Source: a virus
Virus record (IMG/VR): IMGVR_UViG_3300035698_019443
Location: 1-64,000 of that record
Direction: 5' to 3' (one strand)
Length of the DNA: 64,000 bases
Each line of letters starts with the position of its first letter. Positions within the stretch are counted from its first letter, which is position 1. Shown one piece after another: positions 3,084 through 37,272 of the stretch. The notes under the pieces were generated by a model that worked only from the letters and a program-made list of their open reading frames with translations, was not told the origin of the DNA and searched no databases. The position numbers were made by a program, and so were the translations under genes.

Positions 3084-4613
3084 ATGACAATCGTACGATC
3101 TATTCAGACGAACCTGAAAGGGGCAGAGGAGCCCGTCGAGCTTGCGCCTTGCGTGATGCTCGTCGGCGCGAATGGGACGGGGAAGTCGACTATCGTCGAC
3201 TCGCTCTCTCTCGTGCTCACTGGCTCGATGCGGACGCCGGGGCTCGGCAAGCGCGAGGCGGACCTCTTCCGTCTCGTCTCGGGCGAGGGCGATCGTGAGC
3301 TCATCGTGACAGCGCGGCTCGGCGATGACCGCGCAGTGACCTGGAAGACACAGGGGAGCGAGGTCTCCGCGAAGAAGGCGACGTGGACTGTGACCGAGGG
3401 TGAGACCCCGCTGGGCGTCTTCGTCTCCGACACCGCTGAGGCCTTCCTCCTGGGAGACGAGAAGAAGATCCGTCGAGCTGTGCTCCTCGCCGCTGGCGGC
3501 GGGGTGCCACGGGTCGATCTCCTCGCCGAGGTTCCCGCGTCGCAGCACGACATCGTCGTCGAGGTGCTCCCCGGCGACGACAAGGAGATCGCCTTCGAGA
3601 CGCTGCTCGGCGCACGCGACAGTCTGATGAAGAAGGCACGAGATGCACGCGCTGGGGCGAAGGCGGTAGAGAAGACCGCAGAGGTCGCGGCGCTCTCCGA
3701 GAACGAGCGGAAGCTCTTTGTCGCGCTCTGTGCGCTCGATGGCGAACACCCCGGTGTCGTCCAGAGGACAGACCAAGCGACGGTGTCGTACCAGGAGTCG
3801 CTGCACACGATCTACCACGGGGCGTCGCGGGCCAGCTACGAGCTCGGCGCGCTCCTTTCGGCGAAGGGCGTCACGCAGGTCCCGAAGTGCCCGATGTGCG
3901 GAACGGCGGACGTCGCCGTCACGCAGATATCCGAGCGGTCAGAGGAGCTTATCAGCGCGGCGGAGAAGGTCTCGCGTTGGCTCGATGAAGTAGAGGGAAA
4001 GAACGCTGCCGCATGGGCGCGCGACGAGGTTGCAGCGCTACTCCCCAACGAATCTATCGGCAACTGGCCTGAGATCTATCGAGGCCTCCTGGCACGCAAC
4101 CGAGCGCAGTCCACAGCGCACGCCGCGGCTCGAGTCGCGACGGACGCGAATAGGGGAGCGGACGATTACAAGGCGGTCGGGCTCGCCTTCGACGGCCTCA
4201 TGGGCAAGTTCCTCGAGCGGTCGACAGCAGTCATCGAACGCCGCATCAATCGCCTGTTGCCACGGTCTGTGCGGGCTCGTATCGTGCTGGCCGAGGGGAC
4301 CAAGGCGGTCTGTCGTCTCGCAGCGTCGAAGGGCACCGACACTCCCTACCGCGACTTCCGTGCGCTCTCTGGCGCGGAGCGGCAGGTGCTGTCCATCGCC
4401 TTCGCGGCGGCTACCGTCCCCGTCGACGCTCCGCCGGTGCGCCTCCTGGTCATCGACGACGTGTGGCTCGACAACCCGACAATGAAAAAGGTGCTCGCGA
4501 CCGCGGCCAACGCCGTGACTTCAGACGACTCTCGTATCACGCAGGCTGTGGTCTGCGCCGTCAGCTGGACCGCCAAGGTTCCCGACGGTTGGCAGGTGAT
4601 AAAGCTGCCGTGA
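3084..4613 (+). CDS. Rad50/SbcC-like ABC ATPase (recombination)
   Basis: Walker A GANGTGKS, central CPMC zinc hook, signature LSGAER, Walker B LLVIDD. Confidence 0.85.
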   Translation: MTIVRSIQTNLKGAEEPVELAPCVMLVGANGTGKSTIVDSLSLVLTGSMRTPGLGKREADLFRLVSGEGDRELIVTARLGDDRAVTWKTQGSEVSAKKATWTVTEGETPLGVFVSDTAEAFLLGDEKKIRRAVLLAAGGGVPRVDLLAEVPASQHDIVVEVLPGDDKEIAFETLLGARDSLMKKARDARAGAKAVEKTAEVAALSENERKLFVALCALDGEHPGVVQRTDQATVSYQESLHTIYHGASRASYELGALLSAKGVTQVPKCPMCGTADVAVTQISERSEELISAAEKVSRWLDEVEGKNAAAWARDEVAALLPNESIGNWPEIYRGLLARNRAQSTAHAAARVATDANRGADDYKAVGLAFDGLMGKFLERSTAVIERRINRLLPRSVRARIVLAEGTKAVCRLAASKGTDTPYRDFRALSGAERQVLSIAFAAATVPVDAPPVRLLVIDDVWLDNPTMKKVLATAANAVTSDDSRITQAVVCAVSWTAKVPDGWQVIKLP

Positions 4614-33352: not shown

Positions 33353-34219
33353 ATGACGAAAGAGAAGACGATGGTCGAGAAGAAGATCAAAGAGACCGCA
33401 GCGATGGCAGCTACTCGACGGCTCGAACGATCCCGCGGCGTGCTCGTGCATCCCGCAGACCTGCTCGGCGCGACCTACGACGAGGCCGACAAGCTCTACG
33501 CGATCTACGAGGTTGGGATCAAGTTCCGCGATCGTTGCCTCGGCGGACGACCGAAGCTCATCGACGTCGCGATGGCGGCGCTCGAGGCGAAGGCACGAGC
33601 GGGCAAGATGCCAGAGGACGTCCTAGAACGAGCGAAGGCCGACATGCGCGAAGCCTACACCGACGCCGAGAAGGCGCGAGAGAACGGCGACGTCAGCGAC
33701 GAGGCCTACGAGCTCGACGGGGCGAAGGACTCGATGAGCCAGGCGTGGAACGGTTTCTACTACGACGGCGTCGGGATCTATCTCGAGCAGCGCGTCATCA
33801 AAGCCTGCCTGAAGTCCTGCTTCACGCAGCTCGGCATCTTCAAGACGAAGAAGGTCGGACCTGGGGGGACTGTCGGGGCGAAGCAGACGCACAATACAGG
33901 GTTCTTCGTCTGCCCTGGCCGGGTCTACTTCGAGCGCGACGGCGAGATCCTCAAACGCCCCGATGGCTACGAGGACATGCCAGCTCACGTCACCGACCAA
34001 AAGACAGGAGCCCCTCGATCGATCCTCTCGCGCATCGACTACGTCACCGAGGCGGAGATGACCTTCATCGCCAAGCCGCTCATCGGGGGCGCCATCGACG
34101 AGCATGACCTCCTCCGTGCCCTCGCCCTCTCCCGCGACGTGGGGCTCGGCGCGAAGCGGTCGCAGTCCTTCGGTCAGTTCGAGCTCACAAAGGTCCAGCG
34201 TCTCGGCATCGGACGCTAG
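33353..34219 (+). CDS. Stand-alone Cas7/Csm3-like RAMP-fold protein
   Basis: beta1 YEVGIKFRDRCLGG; IYLEQRVIKACLKS (resembles ipgssiKGalR); C-terminal Gly loop GLGAKRSQSFGQF; AAGGAG RBS. Confidence 0.75.
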   Translation: MTKEKTMVEKKIKETAAMAATRRLERSRGVLVHPADLLGATYDEADKLYAIYEVGIKFRDRCLGGRPKLIDVAMAALEAKARAGKMPEDVLERAKADMREAYTDAEKARENGDVSDEAYELDGAKDSMSQAWNGFYYDGVGIYLEQRVIKACLKSCFTQLGIFKTKKVGPGGTVGAKQTHNTGFFVCPGRVYFERDGEILKRPDGYEDMPAHVTDQKTGAPRSILSRIDYVTEAEMTFIAKPLIGGAIDEHDLLRALALSRDVGLGAKRSQSFGQFELTKVQRLGIGR

Positions 34220-34285
34220 ACGACCAACACGAACACGTAGGAAACGCGCGGATAACGACATGACAACGGTCAAACAACAAACCAC

Positions 34286-35143
34286 CGACCGACTTGACAT
34301 CACTTCGCCAGCCTACGCTTTCCAGCAGGCCGGACTACACCCCACCCTCCTTTCCTCGACGACTCGCCAGAGCGCTCTCCACCAAGCTGCGCCAAGCCTC
34401 GCTGCGCGACTACCTATTCCGACCTACTCTTCGCCCTACTATGCCAAGCCCTCCTCGCGACTTGCCAGACTAATCCGGGCTTCACTAGCCTCACCCGACA
34501 ACAGGCCAAACTCCTCTTTTCTCGCCTGCCTGCCGACTTGCTATTCTTCGCCTCACCGGCTCGTCCTGCCGACCTGCCATATCGCCCCCTTCACGCCTTT
34601 CGGCGAGCTCTTGCACACTGCTCTTTGCCGAACTATCGACAGACACACAAACCAAACCGTCCTGTCGACCAGCCGAGCCGTGCCCGGCTGTGCTCCCCTC
34701 CCGACTGGCTACACCCCTCTTCGCCTGCCTGGCCTTTACGACAAACACGACCGCACTACACTCTTCTGCGCTCTCGACTTGCCTCGCTCTTCTCTGCCTC
34801 GCTGCGCCGCCCCTCTCGACGGACCAAGCCGCGCCCCCCTTCGTCGACCTCGCGACAGGCCCGGCTACGCTACGCGCACCTTGGCTCCCGACTCACCAGG
34901 CCGCGCGGCGCTTTGCTACGCTGCCCCTACCCAGCCACGGTCTGCGCTCCACGGCTCTCGTCCGCGCTCCCGACTATCTTGTCTACCCCGCCCCCTACTA
35001 CAACGACGACAATCCAACCCCTCCACGCCCCGCCTCGACGACCTCGCAACTTGCCCGCTCCAGCCGAGCTCCGCTGTGCTCGACGACTGCACATACCCGT
35101 CTATGTCCACCTCTCGACGCACTGCTCTCTTCTGCGCTCTGCG
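34286..35143 (+). repeat. Array of ~23 units, CGAC-(NNNCY)~6-NN(N), modal period 36-37 nt; putative guide-RNA array
   Basis: CGAC heads at e.g. 34666, 34702, 34739, 34775, 34817, 34853, 34889; e.g. CGAC cagCC gagCC gtgCC cggCT gtgCT cccCT cc CGAC. Confidence 0.85.
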
Positions 35144-35157
35144 GTAATCCTTGATCC

Positions 35158-35193
35158 CCGCTCCCAGTCGTGTACGATCACGGCTGGGAGCGG
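35158..35193 (+). other. 15-bp hairpin closing the array
   Basis: CCGCTCCCAGTCGTG-TACGAT-CACGGCTGGGAGCGG (one G-U pair). Confidence 0.7.
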
Positions 35194-35231: not shown

Positions 35232-36227
35232 ATGGGGAAACGAAAGAACAAGAATCGGCGAAGAGGCAAGAGGCCAGAGAACGCGCAGACGAAAGATGCT
35301 GTGTCCGCGTCAGTTCGGGGCTATTTGCAAGCGGTAGAGTCGCATACAGTCGAGCCCATAGAGCAGATCTACCTTCTAGAGAAAAAGGCAACAAACGCGC
35401 TAACCGCTAGACTAACGAGCCACAAAGAAAGCGAGGCGAAAGAGCTAGCGGATGACGCAGACTTTCATCTGCGGACGGAGAGATCGTGGCCGTTCCCTTC
35501 GTTCATTATCTGTCTTGACGATCGGTTTATTACACGGAGGAGGAGCGTTGCTGCGTTTCTCCCTCCAAACGCCGAGCCGCGAGACAAGATCACCTGTTTG
35601 GGGTTTGTCTTCCAACCGGACCGCGTGTCCGCGCTGTTTCGAGTCGGCGCGGAGCCGCGTTTAGTTCCTATACGATCTAAGCAGGCGTGGCACAAATGGC
35701 CACGTAGTGGGTGGTTCTTCTACGCCTTAACTGCGACGGCTGCACTTCGTCGCGTGTGCTCGCGTCAAGTGCTTCCCCTATTCAGCCTAGCCGGCGTACG
35801 CTCCACCTCCGCGCATAACGTCGAGGCGAGAGAGGCGCTGCGTCCTCTACCCCTCCTGTACTACGAGACCAAGGAGCCCACCGGGTATAGCGTAAACGCC
35901 CCGCCCAACCTCGAGACGAAGGGGACACGAGCTCCGCTGCGGTACAGCTACATGCGGCGGAGCTCTGAGTCGGTCAAGGTGCGGCGAGGAGCTCTACCGA
36001 TCTCTGCCGTGGATCAGGCGGTGCTCGCCGATCTCGTCAAGCGGGGGTATCGAGTCTACGCCGAGCCCACGCGAACGATCCGCGAAGAGGACGCAGCGCG
36101 GCTCGAGCTCCGAGGGAAGCGGCTCAAGCACCAAGACGAGTGGCTCGCGATACTGGCGTGGTCCCGCAGAGCCACGCAGGTCAGGCCAGACCTCGAGCTC
36201 ATTCCATCAGTACGGAGGGTTGGATGA
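35232..36227 (+). CDS. Basic hypothetical protein
   Basis: Long ORF downstream of array; no recognised family. Confidence 0.55.
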   Translation: MGKRKNKNRRRGKRPENAQTKDAVSASVRGYLQAVESHTVEPIEQIYLLEKKATNALTARLTSHKESEAKELADDADFHLRTERSWPFPSFIICLDDRFITRRRSVAAFLPPNAEPRDKITCLGFVFQPDRVSALFRVGAEPRLVPIRSKQAWHKWPRSGWFFYALTATAALRRVCSRQVLPLFSLAGVRSTSAHNVEAREALRPLPLLYYETKEPTGYSVNAPPNLETKGTRAPLRYSYMRRSSESVKVRRGALPISAVDQAVLADLVKRGYRVYAEPTRTIREEDAARLELRGKRLKHQDEWLAILAWSRRATQVRPDLELIPSVRRVG

Positions 36228-36546: not shown

Positions 36547-37272
36547 GTGGTACGAAAACAGACGCAAACCAGGGACGACCAGCGCGCGATCGGCTACGCG
36601 CGGGTGTCTACCGTCCAGCAAGCACAAGAGGGATACTCACTCGACGCGCAGCGCGAGAAGATCGCGACCTACTGCTCGATGCGAGACCTCGAGCTCGTCG
36701 ATGTCTTCAGCGACGAGGGGGTCAGCGCCTCGATCCCCTTCGCTCATCGTCCTGGCGGGACTCTCGCAGCCGAGACGTTGTCCTCTCACGGCGCGGGACA
36801 CCTCGTCGGGCTGAAGATCGATCGGTTCTTCCGCAACACCGTAGACTGCCTCTCGAGCATCTCTGTGTGGGATGACAGCGGCGTGGCGCTCCACCTCGTC
36901 GACATGGGGGGCCAAGCCATCGACACTTCCACGGCGATGGGGCGGTTCTTCCTGACAATGATGGCGGGCATGGCCGAGTGGGAGCGCAACGTCATCAGCG
37001 AGCGGACGATCATGGCGCTGCAGCAGAAGAAGGCCAAGGGAGACGACCTCGGGGCGGCAGCCTTCGGCCAGCGCTGGAACACGACGACGCACAAGCTCGA
37101 AGAGAACCTCGAGGAGGTCTTCGTGATCAGACGCATTCGAACGCTGCGGCGCAGCGGTCTGAGCTACGCGAAGATCGCGAAGCTACTGAACGACAACGGG
37201 GTGCCGGCACGACACGGCAAGTGGCACGTCAATACCATCGTTCGAATACTGAAGCGCCCGAGGGGTAAATGA
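36547..37272 (+). CDS. Serine recombinase (resolvase-type catalytic domain + short DNA-binding domain)
   Basis: GYARVST, DEGVSA, KIDRFFR, MAEWERNVISERT. Confidence 0.93.
   Translation: MVRKQTQTRDDQRAIGYARVSTVQQAQEGYSLDAQREKIATYCSMRDLELVDVFSDEGVSASIPFAHRPGGTLAAETLSSHGAGHLVGLKIDRFFRNTVDCLSSISVWDDSGVALHLVDMGGQAIDTSTAMGRFFLTMMAGMAEWERNVISERTIMALQQKKAKGDDLGAAAFGQRWNTTTHKLEENLEEVFVIRRIRTLRRSGLSYAKIAKLLNDNGVPARHGKWHVNTIVRILKRPRGK

What the first reader, a model, noticed from the sequence alone, without database searches (positions are those of the whole stretch)
33353..35193. Orphan Cas7/RAMP-like gene plus a pentamer-coded array: candidate non-CRISPR RNA-guided system
Seen: a 288-aa ORF with RAMP hallmarks (first strand ending LGG, 'VIKACLK' helix, C-terminal GLGAKRSQSFGQF loop). 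It is followed by a ~66-nt A/C-rich leader, an array at 34286-35143 and a 15-bp hairpin. Hand parsing gives ~23 units with heads at 34286, 34323(CAGC), 34360, 34407, 34458, 34496, 34534, 34570, 34601(CGGC), 34637, 34666, 34702, 34739, 34775, 34817, 34853, 34889, ~34927(CTAC), 34971, 35007, 35047(CAAC), 35084 and 35115. Each is CGAC + usually six NNN-CY pentamers + 2-3 nt. No cas1/2/3/5/6/8/10 or canonical CRISPR repeat is recognisable in the window. Established: Cas7-family RAMPs polymerise along guide RNA with a fixed nucleotide step. Inference: one subunit binds each pentamer by its CY and displays the variable bases, and CGAC marks processing sites; with no nuclease the output may be binding/silencing of rival elements or host genes. 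From memory this resembles the phage VIPR systems (GGY/NN motifs), unverified here; the CY/NNN code with CGAC punctuation would be a different variant.
Basis: partly seen in the sequence, partly recalled or inferred. Interest (0 to 1): 0.97.

Follow-up and report, generated by a model that had tools for sequence, protein, structure and literature searches.

The report
Phage VIPR system, C-anchored guide array
A 104-kb phage carries a lone Cas7-like protein gene followed by 23 short five-letter-repeat guide units; this is a VIPR RNA-guided DNA-silencing system, a kind first described in 2026, but its fixed letters are cytosine-pyrimidine on the gene's own strand rather than the published G-G-pyrimidine.

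Summary
33353-34219 encodes a 288-aa protein with a confident RAMP (Cas7-like) fold. After it come a 66-nt leader, an 858-nt array with 5-nt (z=5.0) and ~36-nt (z=4.0) periodicity, 23 units mostly headed by CGAC, and a 15-bp hairpin.

It is not a new kind of system. It belongs to the VIPR systems (Vipr RAMP plus pentamer-repeat vrRNAs) of 2026 preprints. A profile comparison links the family to SUSP1 Vipr (95.9%, E 5e-9). Of 54 homologue loci, 38 carry the same sort of array beside the gene.

Differences from published GGY/NN:
- On the gene's strand the fixed letters are C-Y here (Y-C in most relatives), and three letters vary.
- Units are short (about six pentamers) and abut, separated only by (C)GAC.
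- There is no structured 3' tail and no recognisable vap gene.

Operon packing, terminators and one consensus promoter indicate that the C-rich strand is transcribed (about 70-75%). Its complement would read like the published 'NNNGG/NNNNG' variants.

Pooled over 36 arrays, the variable triplets join like contiguous natural DNA (z=6.4). That suggests the third base is also specified; it is not significant in this window alone. No target was found. This scan noted the same C-anchored arrays in other genomes.

The parts
33353..34219 (+). vipr-like gene: 288-aa single-RRM RAMP protein. It has an N-terminal helix (residues ~2-46), a helical insertion (~70-131), a thumb hairpin and a glycine-rich loop at residues 264-276. 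An AGGAG ribosome-binding site lies just upstream.
   Evidence: AlphaFold2 model pLDDT 91.5. Foldseek top hits are all Cas7-type RAMPs, E 2e-7 to 1e-4. VIA-align Z 11.3 to Csm3 and 11.2 to type VII Cas7. 393 homologue clusters. hhalign to the SUSP1 Vipr family 95.9%, E 5e-9.
34220..34285 (+). 66-nt A/C-rich leader between the stop codon and the first unit. It has no predicted structure.
   Evidence: Sequence; MFE -5.7 kcal/mol, z = +1.25; no sigma-70-like promoter found.
34286..35143 (+). Guide (vrRNA-like) array of 23 abutting units. Each is CGAC (four variants) plus 5-9 (usually 6) pentamers N-N-N-C-Y plus 2-4 nt. Some units are diverged duplicates of one another.
   Evidence: periodicity, parse, statistics; partial duplicates, e.g. 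34752-34774 / 35118-35140 at 91%; no Pfam hit for the ORFs that run through it; no Rfam family.
35158..35193 (+). 15-bp hairpin directly after the last unit, a likely terminator of the vipr-array transcript (no U tract).
   Evidence: It is more stable on the + strand (-32.8 vs -29.3 kcal/mol) because one pair is G.U on + and A.C on -. Equivalent hairpins, some with T tracts, follow the arrays of homologue loci.

Best explanation
This is a VIPR-family system of a complete 104-kb phage. It consists of a Vipr-type RAMP protein and an array of about 23 short guide units, transcribed with the gene on the + strand and ended by the hairpin at 35158-35193. By homology with the SUSP1 system, protomers would polymerise along the RNA, one per pentamer. 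They would sequester the fixed letters (here C-Y) and present the variable letters for base pairing with double-stranded DNA, at three target bases per pentamer. Because no nuclease is present, the outcome would be binding and transcriptional silencing of a competing mobile element or a host gene. The (C)GAC element every ~36 nt delimits the units, either as a cutting site or as a filament start/stop. Shown here: the fold, the homology to Vipr, the array and its statistics, recurrence of the grammar beside homologues, and the genomic evidence for the transcribed strand. Inferred: RNA binding, filament formation, the strand that acts as guide, processing at GAC, DNA targeting and silencing.
For: Fold: pLDDT 91.5. 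Every top Foldseek and VIA-align match is a Cas7/Csm3/Cmr4/Csf2-type RAMP. The G-loop matches Csm4 at E 0.004 with the family profile. Homology: profile-profile comparison to 31 SUSP1-type Vipr proteins gives 95.9%, E 5e-9, over 143 columns spanning helix 1, thumb and G-loop. SUSP1 Vipr is the solved protein 36pp. Context: a complete virus record with terminal repeats, with no Cas1 and no CRISPR array. Recurrence: 38 of 54 non-redundant homologue loci have a 5-nt-periodic array within 450 nt of the gene. One is the cultured Microcystis phage Mae-JY09, with the same CGAC heads and end hairpin. Strand: the C-rich strand is the gene's strand in 38 loci against 3-4. Both flanks of these arrays are coded on that strand in 30/34 and 29/33 cases. 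Arrays run from the stop codon of the previous gene up to the ribosome-binding site of vipr or of the next gene, leaving no room for a promoter (L063, L050, L021, L035). T-tract terminators follow the C-strand 3' end in L045, L077 and L011, and G.U asymmetry favours that strand in the window, L037 and L014. The only strong sigma-70 match beside any array (TTGACA-17-TATAGT, L017) points into the C strand. Published mechanism: bioRxiv 10.64898/2026.04.26.720920, 10.64898/2026.04.26.720927, 10.64898/2026.10.15.759431.
Against: The fixed letters do not match the published GGY on the gene's strand. On the opposite strand the array reads R-G-n-N-N followed by GTCG, i.e. repeats followed by a short fixed 3' element. 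That resembles the published vrRNA layout (repeats then 3' tail) and the published 'NNNGG/NNNNG' variants. The SUSP1 residues that read the two guanines (D177, W178) align to Ala267 and Lys268 here, so base recognition cannot be transferred. No vap gene is recognisable. Six pentamers give only 12-18 informative bases per unit.
Confidence: 0.7

Rival explanations
1. It is the same VIPR system, but the functional vrRNAs come from the G-rich minus strand, convergent with vipr. Units would be (R-G-N-N-N)n ending in GUCG. That is the published 'NNNGG/NNNNG' or 'staggered array' variant, so this would simply be a new member.
For: The complement of the array has G at the fixed position, as all published vrRNA motifs do. 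In L019 the complement is exactly TTTC-(GGYNN)n-GTCG. A fixed element at the 3' end of each unit mirrors the published repeats-then-tail layout. Three loci (L012, L037 upstream, L040 upstream) have the G-rich strand on the gene's strand.
Against: In most loci the position after the two fixed letters would be G (40-60%) on that strand, not the pyrimidine that the SUSP1 pocket requires. 38 of about 42 arrays would be antisense to tightly packed operons with no space for a promoter. Terminators and G.U asymmetry point the other way. No promoter match faces into the G strand. Inverted arrays have larger gaps to the gene (83-194 nt), as expected if the C strand then needs its own promoter.
Confidence: 0.22
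2. The array is not a set of guides for this protein. It might be a decoy/sponge of vrRNA-like units that captures rival phages' Vipr proteins, or a DNA- or RNA-level regulatory tract of the operon.
For: Solo vrRNAs that redirect another element's Vipr are documented (bioRxiv 10.64898/2026.10.15.759431). No target of any unit was found here.
Against: The array sits directly beside its own vipr gene, as in 38 of 54 homologue loci. The fixed letters differ between subfamilies of the protein: C-Y here, Y-C elsewhere. Both points argue for a cognate pair. The units are diverse, not copies of one decoy.
Confidence: 0.05
3. The array is a translated proline/serine-rich coding region (ORFs of 347, 226 and 154 aa run through it), or a decayed CRISPR remnant beside an orphan Cas7.
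For: Long open frames exist on the + strand.
Against: The periodicity is 5, not 3 (the lag-3 signal is at background). Units of 36-38 nt shift the frame. There is no Pfam match. Arrays of homologues differ freely in unit number. There are no 25-40-nt repeats, no spacers of CRISPR size and no Cas1.
Confidence: 0.01

Closest known systems
VIPR type II system of Escherichia phage SUSP1 (Vipr + vap1 + four vrRNAs; bioRxiv 10.64898/2026.04.26.720920, .720927; PDB 36pp)
   Same: Phage-borne, with a lone single-RRM RAMP that has a thumb and a G-loop. Profile-level homology. A non-coding array with 5-nt repeats that mix fixed and hypervariable letters, on the same strand as the gene. No nuclease and no cas genes.
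   Different: The protein is 288 aa rather than 195, with an N-terminal helix and a helical insertion. The G-loop reads GLGAKRSQSFG rather than GVGDWRPRFG. The fixed letters are C-Y, not G-G-Y, and three letters vary rather than two. There are 23 units of about 6 repeats that abut, rather than 4 RNAs of 10-12 repeats each with a ~40-nt pseudoknot tail. No vap1 homologue was found.
Non-canonical VIPR arrays: 'NNNGG, YNNNG, NNNNG' repeats and 'staggered arrays' (same preprint, methods and fig. S17-S18), and 21 clusters with motifs such as GAC/NN, CAC/NN, WGT/NN (bioRxiv 10.64898/2026.10.21.760802)
   Same: Vipr-like fold next to 5-nt repeats whose fixed letters depart from GGY. Units follow one another without spacers. 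If read on the minus strand, this array is of the NNNNG/NNNGG form.
   Different: Neither text (figures not available to me) reports a C-anchored motif, a (C)GAC delimiter, or which strand is transcribed in these types. The second study oriented its sequences arbitrarily. Only types II, III and V have small-RNA data.
Cas7-family backbone subunits of class 1 CRISPR effectors (Csm3, Cmr4, type VII Cas7, Csf2)
   Same: Best structural matches (Z 9-11.3). They have the same RRM + thumb + G-loop and polymerise on guide RNA with a fixed step.
   Different: Those bind 6-nt steps of a contiguous spacer without base specificity. They work with Cas5, Cas6, Cas10/Cas8 and CRISPR arrays, none of which is present here.

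Membership tests
VIPR system | Vipr protein: minimal RAMP with one RRM core, a thumb and a glycine-rich loop | tested here: met
   Model pLDDT 91.5. Cas7-type RAMPs fill the top of both structure searches. G-loop at residues 264-276.
VIPR system | Sequence homology to an experimentally characterised Vipr | tested here: met
   hhalign of the 79-sequence family profile against 31 SUSP1-type Viprs: 95.9%, E 5e-9, 143 columns. Weaker tests failed: profile vs single sequence 9%, and the HMM found nothing in the SUSP1 genome.
VIPR system | Adjacent non-coding array of tandem pentanucleotide repeats with fixed and hypervariable positions | tested here: met
   recurs beside homologues.
VIPR system | Fixed motif GGY (or the published variants NNNGG, YNNNG, NNNNG) on the RNA strand | tested here: inconclusive
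   The gene strand reads N-N-N-C(84%)-Y(89%). The minus strand reads R-G, then C37/G24/T20/A18%. This fits NNNNG only if the minus strand is the RNA, and the genomic evidence argues against that.
VIPR system | Invariable structured 3' tail on each vrRNA | tested here: not met
   Only a 4-nt CGAC delimiter lies between units, and one hairpin follows the whole array. Published types also vary in architecture.
VIPR system | Accessory vap gene next to vipr (typical, not universal) | tested here: not met
   Flanking ORFs have no Pfam or PHROG match, and none is shared with about 60 homologue loci.
VIPR system | No cas genes or CRISPR array; viral or proviral location | tested here: met
   Virus record with terminal repeats, 100% complete. 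No Cas1. No CRISPR-like repeats.
VIPR system | vrRNAs expressed and bound by Vipr | not testable with these tools
   This needs RNA sequencing or a pull-down.
VIPR system | Noncontiguous DNA recognition (two bases read, one skipped) | tested here: inconclusive
   No target was found. Pooled family statistics fit three target bases per pentamer with the third also specified. The window alone is not significant.
Class 1 CRISPR-Cas effector (Cas7 subunit) | Encoded with other cas genes and a CRISPR repeat-spacer array | tested here: not met
   neighbours are unrelated to cas genes.

The most novel reading that the evidence does not exclude
A large clade of Vipr proteins uses a mirror-type code. 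The guide is the C-rich RNA co-transcribed with vipr. Two pyrimidines (C-Y or Y-C) are the protein-held anchor, and all three remaining bases of each pentamer are matched to the target. The gapped guide would then read a contiguous DNA sequence rather than two bases in three. Dozens of about 36-nt guides are released or delimited at (C)GAC.
Probability: 0.3. Interest if true: 0.7.

Novelty: new variant of a known kind. Interest (0 to 1): 0.5.

Why it matters
VIPR is a months-old field, and its code (GGY held by the protein, NN read, one target base skipped) rests on one clade. This locus and about 40 relatives suggest a clade in which the anchor letters are pyrimidines on the gene's strand and three letters vary. 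That would mean the protein-RNA 'grammar' can be re-specified in evolution, and that a gapped guide may read a target without skipping. Both points matter for the proposed ancestry of Cas7 filaments and for engineering small programmable DNA binders. If the minus strand is the guide instead, the locus is an ordinary, though unusually dense, member of a published variant. In that case the antisense placement of nearly all such arrays would itself need explaining.

Tried and rejected
- Pfam and PHROGs on the protein gave no family.
- phmmer against PDB sequences gave only a sub-threshold Csm4 G-loop match.
- tblastn against cultured phages gave one hit, Microcystis phage Mae-JY09.
- The family HMM found nothing in the SUSP1 genome.
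- Rfam on the array and on 40 homologue loci found no hammerhead or other family.
- The sigma-70/terminator scan of the window found nothing useful.
- RNA evidence: no RNA holder was listed for the locus.
- Self-targets: the 23 units were tested under five reading rules (NN, NNx, NNxx, NNxxx, NNN) against the rest of the 104-kb genome. Results were no better than shuffled guides. The same held against 335 kb of homologue loci.
- Exact collection scans with the two-in-three pattern gave 0 matches each. They used the window's 9-pentamer unit and two long guides of relatives. The scan cannot allow mismatches, so this says little.
- The idea that variable triplets are in-frame codons was dropped. 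TAA and TAG are depleted (0.2-0.3x) but TGA is not.
- Relatives cannot be drawn for a virus record.

Full report
**What is there**

The window is the first 64 kb of a 104,264-bp virus record with direct terminal repeats, rated complete. At 33353-34219 (+), 17 nt after the preceding gene and behind an AGGAG site, lies a 288-aa ORF. A 66-nt A/C-rich leader without predicted structure follows. Next comes an 858-nt C-rich tract (C 45%), 34286-35143. After it stands a perfect 15-bp hairpin at 35158-35193 (-32.8 kcal/mol, z = -6.3). The next gene starts at 35232.

**The array is real**

- Same-base autocorrelation peaks at lag 5 (0.388) and lag 36 (0.371), against 0.303 +/- 0.017 in Markov simulations (z = 5.0 and 4.0).
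- CGAC occurs 28 times against 12.7 expected.
- The seven strongest lag-5 windows of the 64 kb all lie inside the tract, and it is the only such array in the genome.
- Each unit then has 5-9 (mostly 6) pentamers. Position 4 is C (84%) and position 5 is C or T (89%), while positions 1-3 vary.
- Unit lengths step by five (31/36/51; 37/42/47).
- Some units are diverged duplicates.
- The lag-3 signal is at background, and the ORFs that run through the tract match nothing, so it is not coding.

**The protein is a RAMP and a Vipr homologue**

Pfam, PHROGs and single-sequence PDB searches were silent. An exhaustive HMMER search found 393 clusters of homologues. With 79 of them as alignment, AlphaFold2 gave pLDDT 91.5.

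Foldseek and the independent VIA-align search were both filled with Cas7-type RAMPs. These included Csm3 (Z 11.3), type VII Cas7 (11.2), Cmr-beta (11.1) and type IV Csf2 (10.4).

VIPR comprises a lone ancestral RAMP (Vipr) plus vrRNAs made of GGY/NN pentamers. It was shown in phage SUSP1 to form a filament with one protomer per repeat and to silence double-stranded DNA, reading two bases and skipping one (bioRxiv 10.64898/2026.04.26.720920.720927, 10.64898/2026.10.15.759431).

I located the SUSP1 locus and collected its family. I then compared profiles and obtained 95.9% probability, E 5e-9, over 143 columns covering helix 1, thumb and G-loop. The phage has no Cas1 and no CRISPR-like repeats. 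The locus is therefore a VIPR-family system, not a new class.

**The grammar recurs beside homologues**

I fetched 2 + 18 + 49 loci from viral and metagenome collections, plus the cultured Microcystis phage Mae-JY09. Of 54 non-redundant loci, 38 have a 5-nt-periodic array within 450 nt of the gene: 31 upstream and 10 downstream.

Heads are (C)CGAC in most, CAGAC in L020/L021 and GCGAC in L035. After the head, the family logo on the gene's strand is N-N-S-Y-C. This window is unusual in having the strict C one position earlier, giving N-N-N-C-Y. No neighbouring gene is shared between this window and any of these loci, so I see no vap here.

**Which strand is the RNA?**

This is the main open point.

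For the minus strand:
- Its reading, R-G-N-N-N repeats followed by GTCG, resembles the published layout of repeats then a 3' element.
- It also resembles the published variants 'NNNGG/NNNNG'.
- In L019 the complement is exactly GGYNN.

For the C-rich plus strand:
- It is the gene's strand in 38 loci against 3-4.
- The flanks of such arrays are coded on that strand in 30/34 and 29/33 cases.
- In L063, L050, L021 and L035 the array fills the whole space between the stop codon of one gene and the ribosome-binding site of the next. It must therefore be transcribed with them, and an antisense promoter has no room.
- Classic T-tract terminators follow the C-strand 3' end in L045, L077 and L011.
- End hairpins are more stable on that strand through G.U pairs: window -32.8 vs -29.3, L037 -34.1 vs -15.7, L014 -26.4 vs -14.5.
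- The single strong sigma-70 match next to any array (L017, TTGACA-17-TATAGT) fires into the C strand, and none fires into the G strand.
- The few inverted arrays keep a larger gap to the gene.
- In most loci the position that would be 'Y3' on the G strand is mostly G, which the SUSP1 pyrimidine pocket would exclude.
- The two guanine-reading residues of SUSP1 Vipr (D177, W178) align to Ala and Lys here.

I put about 70-75% on the C-rich strand. No RNA run was listed for the locus.

**What the variable letters say**

I pooled 3,094 pentamers from 36 arrays. Position 3 of one pentamer and position 1 of the next are two fixed letters apart in the array. Yet they show the dinucleotide biases of adjacent bases in the flanking genomes (z = 6.4; 0 of 1000 order-shuffles reach it). 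Position 2 and the next position 1 behave like bases two apart (z = 3.4). A no-skip NN model and three control pairings do not show this (z -0.8, -5.4, -2.5, -0.1).

So deleting the fixed letters leaves strings that look like contiguous natural DNA, at three bases per pentamer. This agrees with the published geometry of three target bases per repeat. It also suggests that in this clade the third base is specified as well.

The evidence is statistical and holds only at family level. In this window alone it is not significant. Stop-like triplets TAA/TAG are depleted but TGA is not, so I do not claim in-frame codons.

**Targets**

None was found.
- The 23 units match the rest of the phage, and 335 kb of homologue loci, no better than shuffled guides under any rule.
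- The absence of self-targets agrees with the published systems.
- Exact scans of the viral collection with three long guides found nothing.
- That tool cannot tolerate mismatches, so the test is weak.

**Standing**

Non-canonical VIPR motifs are already reported (bioRxiv 10.64898/2026.10.21.760802). Neither text addresses a C-anchored motif, the (C)GAC delimiter or the strand.

Earlier notes of this scan describe the same C-anchored arrays in other phages, so the pattern has been seen before on other DNA. I class it as a new variant of a known kind, of moderate interest. The interest lies in the strand/anchor question and the possible contiguous reading. Both can be settled by one small-RNA experiment and a reporter assay.

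Noticed in passing
window 36547-37272 (+): A 241-aa serine recombinase (Resolvase N-terminal domain E 1e-34; PHROG integrase/invertase) lies 1.3 kb downstream of the array. The SUSP1 VIPR is reported to target a satellite's excision recombinase, so recombinases are relevant players in such conflicts; no link was shown here.
   Followed up: partly
window 35232-36227 (+): A 331-aa ORF directly after the array hairpin has a very basic N-terminus (K/R-rich first ~25 residues) and no Pfam or PHROG match. It could be an unrecognised accessory protein, but it is not conserved beside homologues.
   Followed up: partly
L019:3032-4340 (metagenome contig ERZ1292625...16373): A very regular relative: more than 40 units of CGAC + 3-6 pentamers NNRCC + 4 nt (often GAAA), with unit lengths 23/28/33/38. 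It includes a duplicated block of two units (3529-3578 and 3961-4010). The array runs off the contig end.
   Followed up: partly
L048:1107-3018 (IMGVR_UViG_3300005343_000003): A 1.9-kb array upstream of vipr in which CCGAC is itself in register with the pentamer lattice (units of 5n). This is the largest array seen among the fetched loci.
   Followed up: no
L037 and L040 (IMGVR_UViG_3300036846_000525 / _000731): These loci have two arrays, one inverted upstream (G-rich on the gene's strand) and one co-oriented downstream, so the C-rich strands both point away from the gene.
   Followed up: partly
L058:2655-2715 vs L063:2326-2386: Two related phages share one guide unit that differs only at variable positions 2-3 of three pentamers (AGC/ATG, AGA/ATT, CCG/CCA). 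Pairs like this could be used to study how guides drift.
   Followed up: no
L020 vs L021 (metagenome contigs Ga0310345_10015549 / Ga0256380_1000102): These near-identical vipr genes have arrays headed by CAGAC. The arrays share the gene-proximal units but differ in number and content of distal units, which hints at polar gain or loss of units.
   Followed up: no
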